From assembly GCF_009914755.1 (NCBI RefSeq), contig NC_060943.1: a stretch of 64,000 nucleotides of DNA. One strand, written 5' to 3'. Source of the stretch: the human T2T-CHM13v2.0 reference genome, Homo sapiens. Positions within the stretch are counted from its first letter, which is position 1. Every line of letters begins with the position of its first letter. Below are positions 20,953 to 62,990 of the stretch, in pieces. The notes beneath the pieces are model-generated. The model was not told where the DNA came from, did no database searches, and worked only from the letters and a program-made list of their open reading frames with translations. The translations under genes were made by a program, and so were the position numbers.

Positions 20953-21151
20953 AACCCATTAACATTGTTAGTGATGGGAGAACCCATTAACATTGTTAGT
21001 GATGGGAGAACCCATTACCATTGTTAGTGATGGGAGAACCCATTAACATTGTTAGTGATGGGAGAACCCATTAACATTGTTAGTGATGGGAGAACCCATT
21101 AACATTGTTAGTGATGGGAGAACCCATTAACATTGTTAGTGATGGGAGAAC
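20953..21151. repeat. Minisatellite, 7 x 28 bp, AACCCATTAACATTGTTAGTGATGGGAG
   Basis: Units at 20953+28n, with one substitution in unit 3. Confidence 0.97.
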
Positions 21152-34300: not shown

Positions 34301-34764
34301 GTTCACTTCACAACTGGAAATTTATTTTGGTGGGAACCCCTGAGGATGCAACGGGCATGCTCTTATGGGTACATGAGTCTGCAAAGGTCCCCATCATGTC
34401 TGCTTCCCAATCTAGGTTCTGGACCACAGAGACTTGTGTTATGGTTACAGTAATTCCTTAAAGTTCTCATTATGTTTCTCTGCACTCCTTGATGTGTATA
34501 TTTCAAAACCAGGATCATCACCATCGTAACACTGAACTCAGGATTCTTATAAGGAGGAACTAAAATGGTGATTGTAAAAGGATAGCTCCTAGGACACTGA
34601 GGTTTGGCGTGAACCCAGAAGATGACTGTAACGATTGTAGGGAAGCTGGAATAGCAGGAAAACCATGCCCAATGATGAAATCTCGACCTTGCGTCTAAAA
34701 AACTTAGCGCCTGTTCTGCCTACGCAGAAAGACAGTAGCCGATATCCATTAAGTTCTTCTTGCA

Positions 34765-35507
<743 letters not shown>

Positions 35508-35739: not shown

Positions 35740-35920
35740 CCCTCAAGGGGCGGTGGGCGTTTCGCTTCACATATTTTCTGGATCTGTTCATCAAAAGCCC
35801 TCTGAGCCAATGGCAAGGGAGCAATTCGTTGGCCAATCAAATGGCACCACGGATCTTTTCTTCCCGCTTCCAGCCGCCAATCATTAAGGACCAGGAAGGC
35901 GTGGAGCGGTGAGTCAGCGC
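35740..35920 (+). promoter_or_regulatory. NLRP4: NLRP4 promoter (triple CCAAT, E2F-like TTCCCGC, GC box, AP-1 TGAGTCA)
   Basis: CCAAT at 35807, 35833 and 35877; GGGGCGG at ~35747; TTCCCGC at 35861; TGAGTCA at 35910. CpG-enriched, non-repetitive sequence. Confidence 0.7.
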
Positions 35921-36280
35921 TTCGTGCTGGGCTGTTCGTCTCTTCTATGTGCTGATTTCCTGGGTTACTTTGGGTCTTCCTTTTCTTTCTCCCTTTTACC
36001 CTGTCTCCTTTCTTGAGGCTGATCGATCACAGCCAGGCCTCTCCATTCTATTTACCCAGCGTTTTCCTTCTCTCCAGTTAGTGGGGTAGATGAACGCCCT
36101 GTGTTTATAAGGTGCCTCCCAGGAGCCTGAGACCTGTGAGAAGAATGGGGGGTGGAGGTGGGGGAGACTCGTCACGAAGGGAGACCTTGGAGCTTCGAGG
36201 GTGGGAATGTTCTTATTAGATTCTTCATCTCTGTTGACACAAACATGTAGGAGAAGCTGGAGAACATAGACAGGGATGAG
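35886..36280 (+). other. NLRP4: Putative NLRP4 non-coding exon 1 (start approximate)
   Basis: Strong donor GAG|GTAAGG at 36280/36281 downstream of the CCAAT cluster. An alternative donor GCG|GTGAGT lies at 35908/35909. Confidence 0.6.
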
Positions 36281-48445: not shown

Positions 48446-49116
48446 CCACACTTAAGAGGTGGGGAGTTATGCCGCATCTCCTTAAAGGGGAAGAATCCAT
48501 CCATCTAAGCTACTTGGAATTCTTCTTCTTGCTAAAGTTGTTACAGTTTTAGCTATTGGAGGCTCTTTCAGCCTGCCCTGGGTTTCTTTGGTTAGGAAGT
48601 GGTCTTAGAAACCAAGAGCTGATCTGGACACTGGGTGTATCGATTGCCACTAGGGTATCTGTTATGCTTCCAGGCCCTTGCATGAGTGTGACTGTAACAG
48701 TACCGTAGACTAAGACTATACTTCCAGGGATCATTTCTATAGTTCACTGCAAAATGCTGCAGACTGGATGGCTTACCAACAGAAATGTACTTCCTCTAGT
48801 TCTGGAGGCTGGAAGTTCAAATCAAGGTCCAGCAGAGTCCCTTCCTGATGAAGACTTTCTGGATTGTACACAGCTGCCTTCTGTGTCCCCACATAATAGA
48901 GTCAGAGGAAGAGATGGGGAGAAAGAGAGCCAGGGAGGGACTTCCAGTTGTTCCAGCACCATTTATGGAAGAGACGATCTGCCTCCATTGTGCCTTTGTC
49001 AAAATGAGTTGGCTACATTTGTGGGGCATGCCTTCTCTATTGTTTACTGAGAAAAATGTAATTTCTATATTTACAGTGTAATTTCTATATTTAAAAGTAA
49101 AAATGTAATTTCTGTA

Positions 49117-51076
49117 GCTGCGGTGTAATTTCCAAAGCTGCGGTGTAATTTCCAAAGCTGCGGTGTAATTTCCGAAGCTGCGGTGTAATTTCCGAGACTG
49201 CGGTGTAATTTCCGTGGCCGCGGTGTAATTTCCGTGGCCGCGGTGTAATTTCCGTAGCCGCGGTGTAATTTCCGTAGCCGCGGTGTAATTTCCGAGACTG
49301 CGGTGTAATTTCCGTAGCTGCGGTGTAATTTCCGAGACTGCGGTGTGATTTCCGAGACTGCGGTGTGATTTCCGTAGCTGCGGTGGAATTTCCGAGACTG
49401 CGGTGTAATTTCCGTGGCTGCGGTGTAATTACCGTAGCTGCGGTGTAATTTCCGTGGCTGCGGTGTAATTTCCGAGGCTGCGGTGTAATTTCCGTGGCTG
49501 CGGTGTAATTTCCGTGGCTGCGGTGTAATTTCCGTGGCTGCGGTGTAATTTCCGTGGCTGCGGTGTAATTTCCGAGGCTGCGGTGTAATTTCCGAGGCTG
49601 CGGTGTAATGTCCGTGGCTGCGGTGTAATGTCCGTGGCTGCGGTGTAATTTCCGAGGCTGCGGTGTAATTTCCGAGGCTGCGGTGTAATTTCCGAGGCTG
49701 CGGTGTAATGTCCGAGGCTGCGGTGTAATGTCCGTGGCTGCGGTGTAATGTCCGTGGCTGCGGTGTAATGTCCGTGGCTGCGGTGTAATTTCCGTGGCTG
49801 CGGTGTAATTTCCGAGGCTGCGGTGTAATTTCCGAGGCTGCGGTGTAATGTCCGTGGCTGCGGTGTAATGTCCGTGGCTGCGGTGTAATGTCCGTGGCTG
49901 CGGTGTAATTTCCGTGGCTGCGGTGTAATTTCCGTGGCTGCGGTGTAATTTACGAGGCTGCGGTGTAATGTCCGAGGCTGCGGTGTAATGTCCGAGGCTG
50001 CGGTGTAATGTCCGTGGCTGCGGTGTAATGTCCGTGGCTGCGGTGTACTTCCCGAGGCTGCGGTGTACTTCCCGAGGCTGCGGTGTACTTCCCGAGGCTG
50101 CGGTGTAATTCCCGAGGCTGCGGTGTAATTCCCGAGGCTGCGGTGTAATTCCCGAGGCTGCGGTGTAATGTCCGAGGCTGCGGTGTAATTTACGAGGCTG
50201 CGGTGTAATTTACGAGGCTGCGGTGTAATGTCCGTGGCTGCGGTGTAATGTCCGAGGCTGCGGTGTAATGTCCGTGGCTGCGGTGTAATGTCCGAGGCTG
50301 CGGTGTAATGTCCGTGGCTGCGGTGTAATTTACGAGGCTGCGGTGTAATGTCCGTGGCTGCGGTGTAATGTCCGAGGCTGCGGTGTAATGTCCGAGGCTG
50401 CGGTGTAATGTCCGAGGCTGCGGTGTAATGTCCGTGGCTGCGGTGTAATGTCCGTGGCTGCGGTGTAATGTCCGAGGCTGCGGTGTAATTTACGAGGCTG
50501 CGGTGTAATGTCCGTGGCTGCGGTGTAATGTCCGAGGCTGCGGTGTAATGTCCGTGGCTGCGGTGTAATGTCCGAGGCTGCGGTGTAATTTACGAGGCTG
50601 CGGTGTAATTTACGAGGCTGCGGTGTAATGTCCGTGGCTGCGGTGTAATGTCCGAGGCTGCGGTGTAATGTCCGTGGCTGCGGTGTAATGTCCGTGGCTG
50701 CGGTGTAATGTCCGAGGCTGCGGTGTAATGTCCGAGGCTGCGGTGTAATTTACGAGGCTGCGGTGTAATTTACGAGGCTGCGGTGTAATGTCCGTGGCTG
50801 CGGTGTAATGTCCGAGGCTGCGGTGTAATGTCCGTGGCTGCGGTGTAATGTCCGTGGCTGCGGTGTAATTTACGAGGCTGCGGTGTAATGTCCGTGGCTG
50901 CGGTGTAATGTCCGAGGCTGCGGTGTAATGTCCGAGGCTGCGGTGTAATGTCCGTGGCTGCGGTGTAATGTCCGAGGCTGCGGTGTAATGTCCGAGGCTG
51001 CGGTGTAATGTCCGAGGCTGCGGTGTAATGTCCGAGGCTGCGGTGTAATTTCCGAAGCTGCGGTGTAATTTCCAAA
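49117..51076. repeat. Minisatellite, 98 x 20 bp, consensus GCTGCGGTGTAATKTCCGWG
   Basis: Register is exactly conserved over 1960 bp; variants are substitutions only. Confidence 0.98.
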
Positions 51077-60977: not shown

Positions 60978-61190
60978 AGCAGTTGCTCAACCTCAGCACT
61001 TACAGACATCTCATGCAGATCATTCTTCATCATAGGGGTTGTTCTGTGCGTTGTAGGGTGTTAAGATGCATCCCTGGTCTCTACCCTCTAGATCCTAATA
61101 GCATCCCCTTGTCCAGATAACCAAAATAGTGTCCAGACACTGCCAGCTGTCCCTTGTGGGGGCAAAATCTCTCAAGTTGAGAACTACTGA
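60978..61190 (-). mobile_element. MER20 hAT element
   Basis: ctcaacctcagcact...catccctggtctctaccc...gttgagaactactg. Confidence 0.75.
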
Positions 61191-61313
61191 GCTGTGTCAT
61201 TGGGCTGTGAAATCAGAGAATGAGTTCATGATGGATGATGAGAGACAAACACAGGTGTGCAGGCTGTGCTCCCATTAGATGAAACTCATCCAAAATTTTC
61301 TTTGTTTTTGCAG

Positions 61314-61481
61314 AATAAATAACGTTTCCTTTTCTGGCCAGAGTGTTCTGCTCTTTGAGGTGCTCTTTTATCAGCCAGACTTGAAATACCTGAGCTTCAC
61401 CCTCACGAAACTCTCTCGTGATGACATCAGGTCCCTCTGTGATGCCTTGAACTACCCAGCAGGCAACGTCAAAGAGCTAGC
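61314..61481 (+). CDS. NLRP4: NLRP4 LRR exon (168 nt)
   Basis: INNVSFSGQSVLLFEVLFYQPDLKYLSFTLTKL...GNVKEL. Acceptor tttttgcag|A, donor GC|GTAAGT. Confidence 0.94.
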
Positions 61482-62102
61482 GTAAGTCTCCGTTTATTGA
61501 GACCACTGATTGGGTTTCAGAGAAGACTATAGCCTAAGTCTCCGTTTATTGAGACCACTGATTAGGTTTCAGAGAAAACTATAGCATAAGTCTCCGTTTA
61601 TTGAGACCACTGATTGGGTTTCAGAGAAGACTATAGCGTAAGTCTCCGTTTATTGAGACCACTGATTGGGTTTCAGAGAAGACTATAGCGTAAGTCTCCG
61701 TTTATTGAGACCACTGATTGGGTTTCAGAGAAGACTATAGCGTAAGTCTCCGTTTATTGAGACCACTGATTGGGTTTCAGAGAAGACTATAGCGTAAGTC
61801 TCCGTTTATTGAGACCACTGATTGGGTTTCAGAGAAGACTATAGCGTAAGTCTCTGTTTATTGAGACCACTGATTGGGTTTCAGAGAAGACTATAGCGTA
61901 AGTCTCTGTTTATTGAGACCACTGATTGGGTTTCAGAGAAGACTATAGCGTAAGTCTCTGTTTATTGAGACCACTGATTGGGTTTCAGAGAAGACTATAG
62001 CGTAAGTCTCCGTTTATTGAGACCACTGATTGGGTTTCAGAGAAGACTATAGCGTAAGTCTCTGTTTATTGAGACCACTGATTGGGTTTCAGAGAAGACT
62101 AT
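61480..62102. repeat. Minisatellite, 12 x 52 bp, starting at the NLRP4 exon donor
   Basis: Unit GCGTAAGTCTCYGTTTATTGAGACCACTGATTGGGTTTCAGAGAAGACTATA at 61480+52n. Confidence 0.98.
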
Positions 62103-62603
62103 GTATTTCTTTTTGTGTTGGGGGAGGGGGCTGCATATTTGAAGACATCCACTTTTTCCTTCTATGATTTGTATGCAAACTTAGTTTCCTGAGAACTTGG
62201 ATAGGGAAGTTAAAGTTTCCCAATTGATGTAGCCATTTCGGAAAACTGTGTGTATTCAGCCTTCATGGATTCTGGCAGATTATGTAACCCAATAATTCCA
62301 CCTGGAGGTGCACATTCGACAGAGGGACCTGTCTCAGTTTGCTGAAAGACAGGCACTAAAGCATTCCCAGCAGGTGTTCATAATCTCTGAGAAGTGGAAA
62401 TACCACTGACAGTAAGTTGGATAAGAAACCTGTGGTTACATGCTCCTGTTCCATGAGAAAGAACACTCTCGGTCGTATGCAAAAACCTGGACAAATCTCA
62501 GACATTGTTGATGGCAATGAGCCAGACTCAAGAGTACATCCTATGGCTTTATTCCTGTGAAGTTCAAAGATGGACAAGGCTCTGGTGTTGGAGGTTCGGG
62601 CAG

Positions 62604-62990
62604 TGTATTCACACGTTCTCGCGCTGCTATAAAGACATACCTGAGACTGGGAATTTATAAATAAAAGAGGTGTAATTGGCTTATGGTTCTGAAGGATGTA
62701 CAGGCTTCTGCTTCTGGGGAGGCCTCAGGAAACTTACAATGGTGGCAGAAGGCAAAGGGAAAGCAGGCACGTCTTACATGGGGGAGCAGGAAGAAGAGAG
62801 AAGAGGGAGGCGCTACACAGTTCCAAGCAACCAGGTCGCGTGAGGACTCTGTCACAGGAACAGCTCTAGGGGATGGTGGTAAATCACTAGAAACCACCCC
62901 CATGATTCCGTCACCCCCCAGGCCCCTCCTCCAACACTGGGATTACAGTTCGACGTGAGGGTTGGGTGGGGACACAGCCGAACCATATCA
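62604..62990 (-). mobile_element. MST/THE1-type MaLR solo LTR, antisense
   Basis: tgtatt...gctataaagacatacctgagactggg...gggacacagccgaaccatatca. Confidence 0.85.

What the first reader, a model, noticed from the sequence alone, without database searches (positions are those of the whole stretch)
61478..62102. Splice-donor array: a VNTR copies the NLRP4 5' splice site 12 times, and only the two nearest copies have lost the GT
Seen: the 52-bp unit begins with the authentic exon junction TAGC|GTAAGT (GT at 61482). Copies 4-12 keep an identical TAGC|GTAAGT (GT at 61638, 61690, 61742, 61794, 61846, 61898, 61950, 62002, 62054). Copies 2 and 3 have lost the invariant G by two different substitutions (C at 61534, A at 61586). 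Read-through of the true donor gives GCG TAA (stop at 61483-61485), so use of any decoy adds a premature stop. Established: internal exons longer than roughly 300 nt are poorly defined, and premature stops upstream of a junction trigger NMD. Inference: decoys 2 and 3 would give 220- and 272-nt exons, which could compete with the real donor, while copy 4 onward gives 324 nt or more. The pattern therefore looks like selection removing only the dangerous donors. The array could act as a copy-number-dependent splicing/NMD rheostat or U1 snRNP sink. Caveat: the G>A change is at a CpG and could be neutral decay.
Basis: partly seen in the sequence, partly recalled or inferred. Interest (0 to 1): 0.82.

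Follow-up and report, generated by a model that had tools for sequence, protein, structure and literature searches.

The report
NLRP4 splice-junction minisatellite with decoy donors
A 52-base tandem repeat at the start of an NLRP4 intron really does copy the exon's splice donor twelve times, but repeats of this kind are already known in other human genes, and losing the two nearest copies needs no selection to explain it.

Summary
Window 61478-62102 is 12 head-to-tail copies of a 52-bp unit whose first copy starts 4 nt inside NLRP4 exon 5. The 9-mer AGC|GTAAGT is identical in copies 1 and 4-12. Copy 2 reads CT and copy 3 reads AT in place of GT. Read-through of the true donor gives GCG TAA.

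This is a new member of a described class: minisatellites whose first monomer spans an exon-intron boundary (F7 IVS7, CBS IVS13, IFI6, LMNB2; PMC1557585). In F7, identical downstream pseudo-sites are functional but silent, because the most upstream site wins.

In this assembly the first CBS decoy is also GT-less, and a 2000 paper title says that substitution prevents alternate splicing.

Selection is not shown here, for four reasons:
- The lost G sits in a CpG.
- All four private substitutions lie in copies 2-3, and two of them are unrelated to the donor, so these look like old, un-homogenised units.
- A second array in the same intron shows the same CpG decay of a C|GTAAG motif.
- F7, LMNB2 and IFI6 keep their nearest decoys.

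The neutral-model probability is 0.008-0.16. The rheostat and U1-sink ideas have no support. Ape and other human haplotypes and RNA-seq could not be examined.

The parts
61314..61481 (+). NLRP4 exon 5 (168 nt, coding, ends in phase 2). Its last 4 nt, TAGC, are the first 4 nt of repeat copy 1.
   Evidence: RefSeq rows; frame and translation
61478..62102 (+). Tandem array of 12 x 52 bp that spans the exon 5 / intron 5 boundary.
   Evidence: TRF score 1194, 98% matches, 0 indels; units listed; no copy found elsewhere in the genome
61479..61487 (+). Authentic donor AGC|GTAAGT, with GT at 61482-61483. It is the only donor used in the annotated transcripts.
   Evidence: 3 of 3 RefSeq transcripts; PWM at the 8.6th percentile of 174 donors; U1 duplex -6.4 kcal/mol
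61483..61485 (+). In-frame TAA that is met if the authentic donor is skipped.
   Evidence: Translation ...NVKELA*
61530..61581 (+). Copy 2. The donor G is changed to C at 61534 (CT in place of GT). It carries two further substitutions at 61564 and 61577, making it the most diverged unit.
   Evidence: U1 duplex -2.6 kcal/mol
61582..61633 (+). Copy 3. The donor G is changed to A at 61586, a CpG transition (AT in place of GT). The rest matches the consensus.
   Evidence: U1 duplex -2.5 kcal/mol
61634..62101 (+). Copies 4-12. These are nine intact decoy donors with the same 9-mer as the authentic site. Copies 8, 9, 10 and 12 share a C>T at the second CpG (unit position 14).
   Evidence: Each junction is predicted to sit in a junction-spanning hairpin that the authentic site lacks.

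Best explanation
This is an ordinary intronic minisatellite. It arose by tandem duplication of a 52-bp segment whose left breakpoint fell 4 nt inside NLRP4 exon 5, so each unit carries a copy of the 5' splice site.

The first, authentic donor is the one used. It is the most upstream site, it is transcribed first, and it closes a 168-nt exon 168 nt downstream of its 3' splice site. This is the '5'-to-3' oriented scanning' or exon-definition behaviour shown experimentally for the F7 IVS7 array. The downstream copies are silent pseudo-sites with no function of their own.

The 5' end of the array (copies 2-3) is the old part that is no longer homogenised, and it has collected point substitutions. 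The rest (copies 4-12) is young or recently homogenised. The two GT losses are most simply CpG-centred decay in those old units.

Shown: the anatomy, the frame, annotated donor use, the unequal divergence of units, and CpG decay in a neighbouring array.

Inferred: that the decoys are silent in vivo, that scanning or exon definition is the cause, and that the GT losses are neutral.
For: - Structure.
- 3 of 3 RefSeq transcripts use 61481, and none uses 61481+52n.
- The class and its behaviour are described in PMC1557585 (Introduction, Results section 6 and Discussion read). [quoted passage not shown]
- In the same assembly, F7 keeps 5 of 5 decoys, LMNB2 keeps copies 2-10 and IFI6 keeps copies 2-5.
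- All 4 private substitutions of the NLRP4 array are in copies 2-3, and 2 of them have nothing to do with the donor.
- At least 3 substitutions in one 52-bp unit is unlikely since the human-chimp split, with P 0.004-0.012 under recalled round divergence figures. Nine other copies differ by one shared CpG change.
- Local control: the 67-bp array 4.2 kb downstream in the same intron has a C|GTAAGC motif whose CpG G is A in 3 of 8 full copies. Its CpG positions take about 6.6 times more distinct substitution types per position (5 types at 4 positions against 12 at 63). One CpG G there shows two different substitutions, G>A and G>T.
- With CpG weights of 5-10, the chance of at least 2 of 4 events hitting GT is 0.04-0.08.
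- The window lies 2.7 Mb from the chr19q end (contig length) and holds several other minisatellites.
Against: - Two different substitutions at the one essential G, in exactly the two decoys nearest the exon, is improbable under uniform rates. P is 0.008 for GT and 0.002 for the G alone. One of the two is a G>C transversion, which CpG deamination does not explain.
- CBS shows the same pattern, with the first decoy reading CAG|AT. A published title attributes a splicing effect to it.
- PMC1557585 says that where pseudo-sites are used (IFI6, CBS), it is the two most proximal ones.
- Pooled over five arrays, GT-less decoys occupy 3 of 10 nearest-two slots against 3 of 59 others. Fisher one-sided P is 0.036, but 0.46 without NLRP4, which is the case that prompted the test.
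- Silence of the decoys rests on annotation only. No RNA-seq could be read, and NMD would hide decoy products from annotation.
- Only one haplotype was read.
Confidence: 0.6

Rival explanations
1. Purifying selection, the reader's core idea in its CBS-like form. The two decoys nearest the exon are the only ones the spliceosome would use alongside the real donor. Their use gives a stop codon and NMD, so haplotypes in which they lost GT were favoured. Distant decoys are harmless and were left alone.
For: - Both nearest decoys have lost the same essential G by different changes. Uniform-rate P is 0.002-0.014.
- The first CBS decoy is GT-less in this assembly through a non-CpG G>A. [quoted passage not shown] - In F7, use of a pseudo-site falls and exon skipping rises with distance.
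- Exon-length bins thin from 3.97% (246-297 nt) to 1.48% (298-349 nt) of 9219 internal exons.
Against: - The CpG context raises the neutral P to 0.04-0.16.
- If the two units share one ancestral loss, only one event remains, with P 0.11-0.38.
- The same motif decays in an array far from any exon end.
- F7, LMNB2 and IFI6 keep their nearest decoys.
- F7 minigenes show no competition from identical sites.
- The effect on fitness of a few percent NMD-cleared transcripts of a reproduction-related NLRP gene is likely tiny. This is an inference, and gene constraint figures were not available here.
Confidence: 0.25
2. The array is functional as an array. It could be a copy-number-dependent splicing/NMD rheostat. 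It could instead be a local U1 snRNP landing pad that guards the 5.5-kb intron against premature cleavage and polyadenylation.
For: - There are ten identical U1-complementary sites within 625 nt at the intron start.
- Polyadenylation-signal hexamers lie downstream in the intron at 62660 (AATAAA), 63179 and 65687 (ATTAAA).
- U1 protection of introns from premature polyadenylation is established knowledge, recalled and not taken from a call.
Against: - No expression, copy-number or conservation data could be read.
- Three hexamers in 5.5 kb is unremarkable.
- The site is a below-median U1 target, and the decoys are predicted to be less accessible than the real site.
- A global U1 'sink' is implausible for a low-abundance germline transcript, given the very high copy number of U1 (recalled).
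- No published splicing or expression association of a tandem repeat with NLRP4 turned up. Supplements were closed.
Confidence: 0.05
3. RNA structure, not position, silences the decoys. The 3' part of each unit is complementary to the 5' part of the next. Every internal junction therefore sits in a hairpin with positions +4 to +8 in the stem. The authentic site has exon sequence in place of the 5' arm and stays more open.
For: - The MFE of a 55-nt context is -12.9 kcal/mol for copy 4 against -8.4 for the authentic site.
- The probability that the 9-mer is unpaired is 8.6 to 28 times higher for the authentic site than the mean of the 9 intact decoys in 4 of 5 window/span settings.
- Copy 3, whose 5' arm is broken by the 61577 substitution, is as open as the authentic site.
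Against: - With a maximum span of 40 nt the ratio is 1.2.
- Absolute unpaired probabilities are low for all sites, at most 0.05.
- The whole region folds no better than shuffles: z is -1.40, and 20 of 200 shuffles fold at least as well.
- This is prediction only. For F7, the authors found no structure that explained the choice (Discussion).
Confidence: 0.15

Closest known systems
F7 intron 7 (IVS7) 37-bp minisatellite (Borensztajn et al. 2006, PLoS Genet, PMC1557585)
   Same: - The first monomer consists of the last 4 bp of the exon plus intron sequence, which is the same 4-nt overlap as here.
- The donor 9-mer is repeated identically in the following monomers.
- Only the first site appears in normal transcripts.
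- It was seen in the same assembly as 6 copies with all 5 decoys intact.
   Different: - F7 keeps its nearest decoys.
- Its unit is shorter (37 against 52 bp) and its array is shorter (6 against 12 copies here).
- Its donor is TGG|GTGGGT.
- Its polymorphism (5-9 copies) and the behaviour of its pseudo-sites have been shown experimentally. Neither has been shown for NLRP4.
CBS intron 13 31-bp VNTR (Yang et al. 2000; Lievers et al. 2001; both seen only as reference-list entries)
   Same: - The array spans the exon/intron border.
- In this assembly the first decoy has lost GT (CAG|AT), while the other 16 of 17 decoys keep it.
   Different: - One decoy is lost rather than two.
- The change is not at a CpG.
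- Most of the unit is exon-like sequence.
- According to PMC1557585, two pseudo-sites are still used in CBS.
- I set the register of the CBS junction from the sequence and the paper's description, because no chr21 exon table was at hand.
IFI6 (6-16) intron 2 12-nt minisatellite (Turri et al. 1995; cited in PMC1557585; the paper is not held)
   Same: The donor is reiterated about 25 times after the authentic site. The nearest pseudo-sites are the ones that matter.
   Different: - The 12-nt unit keeps the reading frame, so use of the two nearest decoys gives protein isoforms and not a stop.
- The nearest decoys are intact.
LMNB2 intron minisatellite (de Stanchina et al. 1997; reference title seen)
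   Same: - It has about 12 copies, its first unit starts 7 nt inside the exon, and it reiterates the junction.
- Only the authentic donor is used, according to PMC1557585.
- It is also on chr19.
   Different: - The unit is 105 bp, and the array fills most of a 1302-nt intron.
- The nearest decoys are intact.
- The one GT-less copy is at the far end (copy 11).

Membership tests
Exon-intron-junction-spanning minisatellite (F7 IVS7 / CBS / IFI6 / LMNB2 class, as defined in the PMC1557585 Introduction) | A tandem array whose first monomer spans an exon-intron boundary. | tested here: met
   The array at 61478-62102 starts 4 nt before the annotated exon end at 61481.
Exon-intron-junction-spanning minisatellite (F7 IVS7 / CBS / IFI6 / LMNB2 class, as defined in the PMC1557585 Introduction) | [quoted passage not shown] | tested here: met
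   9 of 11 downstream copies carry the identical 9-mer AGC|GTAAGT. Identity runs from -4 to +48.
Exon-intron-junction-spanning minisatellite (F7 IVS7 / CBS / IFI6 / LMNB2 class, as defined in the PMC1557585 Introduction) | The pseudo-sites are normally silent, or only the most proximal ones are used. | tested here: inconclusive
   3 of 3 RefSeq transcripts use only 61481. No RNA-seq was available, and NMD would hide decoy products.
Exon-intron-junction-spanning minisatellite (F7 IVS7 / CBS / IFI6 / LMNB2 class, as defined in the PMC1557585 Introduction) | Copy number is polymorphic in the population (a VNTR in the strict sense). | not testable with these tools
   Only the T2T-CHM13 haplotype can be read. 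Literature searches found nothing on this array. Supplements were closed.
Exon-intron-junction-spanning minisatellite (F7 IVS7 / CBS / IFI6 / LMNB2 class, as defined in the PMC1557585 Introduction) | The pseudo-sites become active in order when upstream sites are inactivated. | not testable with these tools
   This needs minigenes like those of PMC1557585 Results.
CBS-type 'nearest decoy disabled' arrangement | The decoy next to the authentic donor has lost the GT, while later ones keep it. | tested here: met
   NLRP4 copies 2 and 3; CBS first decoy.
CBS-type 'nearest decoy disabled' arrangement | The substitution demonstrably changes splicing or is maintained by selection. | tested here: inconclusive
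   Neutral-model P is 0.008-0.16. The local CpG control shows equal decay. Pooled Fisher P is 0.036 with NLRP4 and 0.46 without it.
Recursive-splice-site or micro-exon array (a 3' splice site followed closely by a donor in each unit) | A credible 3' splice site upstream of each donor copy. | tested here: not met
   The TTTCAG in each unit, 13 nt before the donor, scores at the 0.6th percentile of 175 chr19 acceptors in all 12 copies.
Structured or annotated RNA family | A match to an Rfam model. | tested here: not met
   0 matches at E up to 1 in 61000-62600, both strands.

The most novel reading that the evidence does not exclude
Junction-spanning minisatellites whose decoy use would be out of frame or hit a stop may obey a rule: the one or two decoys nearest the exon are disabled by selection, while distant ones are free to multiply. 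NLRP4 (two hits at the essential G) and CBS (one hit) would be independent instances. The NLRP4 array would then be a natural version of the F7 mutational series, with the remaining nine decoys giving a low, copy-number-dependent leak into NMD in germ cells.
Probability: 0.2. Interest if true: 0.55.

Novelty: new member of a known kind. Interest (0 to 1): 0.3.

Why it matters
The finding adds a sixth human gene to a small, experimentally useful class of natural arrays of identical 5' splice sites. It carries a natural 'knock-out' of the first two decoys. With 156 nt between the real donor and the next intact copy, it could test how far the first-site preference seen in F7 reaches, and whether exon size, RNA structure or order of transcription sets it.

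For NLRP4 itself the practical point concerns variant interpretation. A variant that kills the donor at 61482 is expected to give exon 5 skipping or use of copy 4 with an immediate stop. It would not give a benign in-frame rescue.

Nothing here shows that the array has a function.

Tried and rejected
- **Micro-exon or recursive-splicing reading.** Each unit has TTTCAG 13 nt before the donor. Rejected, because the acceptor PWM puts it at the 0.6th percentile in all 12 copies.
- **Structured RNA or ncRNA array.** No Rfam match. The fold z-score is -1.40.
- **Origin from a transposable element or a paralogue.** The search with 3 units found only self-hits in the genome, and there is no masked repeat between 60353 and 62620. 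The search skips common words, so a diverged single copy could be missed.
- **'Strong donor' premise.** Rejected. The PWM comes from only 174 donors of gene-dense, GC-rich chr19 stretches and ignores dependence between positions, so it may undervalue a site with a perfect intron half. MaxEntScan and SpliceAI were not available.
- **Frequency of such arrays.** 0 of 153 annotated donors in 7 gene-dense chr19 stretches overlap a tandem array.
- **PDGFA comparator.** PMC1557585 names an array of 81 bp x 16-18. It was not found in the T2T gene span, where only a 97-bp repeat of about 2 copies appears, so I dropped it from the counts.
- **Literature on this array.** Searches for NLRP4 + VNTR (3 papers, irrelevant), NLRP4 + tandem repeat + intron (2, irrelevant) and NLRP4 + minisatellite (1, irrelevant) found nothing. 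There is no NLRP mention in the main text of the splicing-TR catalogue PMC10078293. Its supplements, and those of VNTR catalogues, were closed and may list this array.
- **Papers not held.** The primary papers on IFI6 and CBS are not held.
- **Not possible here.** Ape orthologues, other human haplotypes, RNA-seq and gene-constraint scores could not be examined.
Full report
**1. The observation**

Window 61478-62102 is a clean tandem array with period 52, 12.0 copies, 98% matches, no indels and TRF score 1194. Copy 1 begins with TAGC, the last four bases of NLRP4 exon 5 (61314-61481), followed by GTAAGT.

Differences from the consensus, unit by unit:
- Copies 1, 4-7 and 11 have none.
- Copy 2 has three: 61534 G>C, 61564 G>A and 61577 G>A.
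- Copy 3 has one: 61586 G>A.
- Copies 8, 9, 10 and 12 share one C>T at unit position 14.

AGC|GTAAGT therefore occurs at the authentic site and at nine decoys: 61638, 61690, 61742, 61794, 61846, 61898, 61950, 62002 and 62054. The two copies nearest the exon read CT and AT.

The coding length up to 61481 is 2186 nt, which is phase 2. Read-through gives ...NVKELA followed by a stop at 61483-61485. Five exons follow. By the usual NMD rule (established knowledge), a transcript spliced at any decoy would be degraded.

'VNTR' in the sense of variable number was not checked, because only one haplotype is readable.

**2. What surrounds it**

- All 3 RefSeq transcripts use the donor at 61481.
- Intron 5 is 5550 nt long and ends at an acceptor at the 85th percentile of 175 chr19 acceptors.
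- The upstream intron is 444 nt.
- The unit has no other copy in the genome that the search could see. It does not lie in a masked interspersed repeat and matches no Rfam family.
- The same intron holds a second minisatellite, 67 bp x 9, which ends 150 nt before exon 6.
- Intron 1 holds a 20-bp x 98.5 array.
- The window lies 2.7 Mb from the end of chr19q (contig length).

**3. The donor is not strong**

A position matrix built from 174 annotated chr19 donors places AGCGTAAGT at the 8.6th percentile. The low score comes from G at -2 and C at -1, and 9 of the 174 donors have C at -1.

The predicted duplex with the U1 5' end is -6.4 kcal/mol against a median of -8.9. That is stronger than 21% of the 174 donors.

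The training set is small, comes from GC-rich gene-dense stretches, and treats positions as independent. A site with a perfect intron half may therefore be undervalued.

Copies 2 and 3 fall to -2.6 and -2.5 kcal/mol.

**4. This kind of array is already known**

The Introduction of Borensztajn et al. [quoted passage not shown] It lists five genes:
- IFI6 (6-16): 25 pseudo-sites, of which the two most proximal are used constitutively.
- CBS IVS13: two pseudo-sites are used.
- LMNB2 and PDGFA: only the authentic site is used.
[quoted passage not shown] When upstream sites are killed, the next one is used. The further away that next site is, the more exon skipping occurs.

The reference list includes Yang et al. 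[quoted passage not shown] I saw the title only, because the paper is not held.

**5. The known arrays in the same assembly**

I fetched the gene spans, ran TRF on them and printed the units.

| Gene | Array | State of the decoys |
|---|---|---|
| F7 | 6 copies | 5 of 5 decoys keep TGG\|GTGGGT |
| LMNB2 | 105 bp x 11.9; first unit starts 7 nt inside the annotated exon | Copies 2-10 and 12 keep GT; copy 11 reads AT |
| IFI6 | 12 nt, 25 decoys | Copies 2-22, 24 and 25 keep GT; copies 23 and 26 read AT |
| CBS | 31 bp, 17 decoys | The first decoy reads CAG\|AT; the other 16 keep GT |

The PDGFA array was not found in the T2T gene span, so it is left out.

For F7, IFI6 and CBS I had no exon table. 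I set the junction from the paper's description and the sequence.

Pooled over the five arrays, GT-less decoys fill 3 of 10 nearest-two slots and 3 of 59 other slots. The one-sided Fisher P is 0.036. Without NLRP4, the case that prompted the test, the counts are 1 of 8 against 3 of 50, with P 0.46. Copies within an array are not independent, so these figures are only indicative.

**6. Is the loss of GT in copies 2 and 3 more than neutral decay?**

The unit has two CpGs, at positions 4-5 and 14-15, and the donor G is the G of the first one. The array shows five distinct substitution events, four of them private to copies 2-3.

The probability that at least 2 of 4 events hit GT depends on the weight given to CpG positions:

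| CpG weight | P(at least 2 of 4 events hit GT) |
|---|---|
| 1 (uniform rates) | 0.008 |
| 5 | 0.041 |
| 10 | 0.079 |
| 15 | 0.107 |

With five events the range is 0.014-0.16. If copies 2 and 3 descend from one unit that had already lost its G, only one loss remains to explain, with P 0.11-0.38.

The 67-bp array in the same intron serves as a local control:
- CpG positions carry 5 distinct substitution types at 4 positions, against 12 types at 63 other positions. That is about 6.6-fold per position.
- Its own C|GTAAGC motif has A in place of G in 3 of 8 full copies.
- One CpG G shows both G>A and G>T.

Two different changes at one CpG guanine within an array is therefore not unusual in this intron.

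Copy 2 carries two further substitutions unrelated to the donor. Three or more changes in 52 bp are unlikely since the human-chimp split, with P 0.004-0.012 using recalled round divergence figures. The nine copies 4-12 differ by one shared change.

The simplest reading is that copies 2-3 are old units outside the zone of recent expansion or homogenisation. This polar pattern is typical of minisatellites (recalled knowledge). Copies 4-12 keep GT because they are young, not because they were spared.

The G>C transversion in copy 2 and the parallel with CBS remain points for selection.

**7. The 300-nt argument**

Among 9219 internal exons of chr19 'select' transcripts:
- 6.36% are 194-245 nt.
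- 3.97% are 246-297 nt.
- 1.48% are 298-349 nt.
- 5.23% (482) are 300 nt or longer.

This is a gradient, not a threshold. NLRP4 has a 1576-nt internal exon, and the intron upstream of exon 5 is short. In the classic work (recalled, not read here), a short flanking intron relaxes the exon-size limit. The F7 data do support a decline of decoy use with distance.

**8. How the real donor is probably chosen**

By analogy with F7, the first site wins. It is the most upstream and the first transcribed, and it closes a 168-nt exon.

One additional, purely predicted feature emerged. The 3' part of each unit pairs with the 5' part of the next, so each internal junction sits in a hairpin with +4 to +8 in the stem. 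The authentic site has exon sequence in place of that 5' arm.
- A 55-nt context folds at -12.9 kcal/mol for copy 4 against -8.4 for the authentic site.
- The authentic 9-mer is 8.6-28 times more likely to be unpaired than the mean of the intact decoys in 4 of 5 settings.
- With a 40-nt span limit the ratio is only 1.2.
- All the probabilities are low, at most 0.05.
- The region as a whole folds no better than shuffles, with z -1.40.

I treat this as a lead only.

**9. Other readings**

- Micro-exon or recursive-site reading: excluded by the very poor acceptor score, at the 0.6th percentile in 12 of 12 copies.
- Local U1 landing pad against intronic polyadenylation: this cannot be excluded. Polyadenylation-signal hexamers lie at 62660, 63179 and 65687, but nothing positive supports the idea.
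- Global U1 sink: implausible on abundance grounds (recalled).
- Copy-number rheostat: untested.

**10. Literature on this array**

I found nothing in print on it. Searches for NLRP4 with VNTR, with tandem repeat plus intron, and with minisatellite returned 3, 2 and 1 irrelevant papers. The main text of a genome-wide catalogue of splicing-associated tandem repeats does not mention NLRP genes (passages only). Supplementary tables were closed and may list it.

Passages from PMC2735741 place NLRP4 among the reproduction-related NLRP genes and report oocyte expression for the mouse copies.

**11. Verdict**

This is a real, clean junction-spanning minisatellite. It is a new member of a known kind, and most likely a by-product of minisatellite turnover with silent decoy donors.

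The loss of the two nearest decoys is suggestive, and CBS offers a precedent, but CpG decay in old units explains it adequately. Selection gets about one chance in four. The functional-array ideas get about one in twenty.

Ape and human haplotypes, junction reads under NMD inhibition, and a simple minigene series would settle the question.

Noticed in passing
L019 2286-2882 (chr19:58966286-58966882; beyond the window end, same NLRP4 intron 5): A second minisatellite, 67 bp x 9.0 with 91% matches, ends 150 nt upstream of exon 6. Each unit carries a C|GTAAGC donor-like motif. The CpG G of that motif is A in 3 of 8 full copies. I used it as a neutral control.
   Followed up: partly
window 49104-51073: A large minisatellite, 20 bp x 98.5 copies with 94% matches, lies in NLRP4 intron 1. 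It ends 265 nt before exon 2 (51338).
   Followed up: no
window 20953-21151 and 34764-35327: A 28-bp x 7.1 array lies in an NLRP11 intron. A 141-bp x 4 array of Alu-like sequence lies just upstream of the head-to-head NLRP11/NLRP4 first exons. In the supplied annotation those two exons overlap by 36 bp (35886-35921).
   Followed up: no
window 61478-62102, minus strand: The reverse complement of TTTATT (unit positions 17-22) is AATAAA. The antisense strand of the array therefore carries 12 polyadenylation-signal hexamers. This was read from the sequence, and no test was made.
   Followed up: no
window 61564 and 61577 (copy 2): The two non-donor substitutions of copy 2 both touch motifs of possible interest. 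One turns the unit's only GGG run into AGG. The other breaks the 5' arm of the predicted hairpin around the copy-3 junction, which makes that GT-less junction as open as the real donor.
   Followed up: partly
window, donors of NLRP4 and NLRP11: 5 of the 11 NLRP4/NLRP11 donors examined lack G at -1: CAA, ACC, TAC, AGC and GAT before GT. In the 174-donor set, 84% have G at -1. This probably reflects codon constraints of phase-2 LRR exons.
   Followed up: no
L009-L011 (PDGFA gene span, chr7:598210-621677): The 81-bp x 16-18 junction-reiterating array that PMC1557585 attributes to PDGFA intron 4 was not seen in this assembly's gene span. Only a 97-bp repeat of about 2 copies was found.
   Followed up: partly
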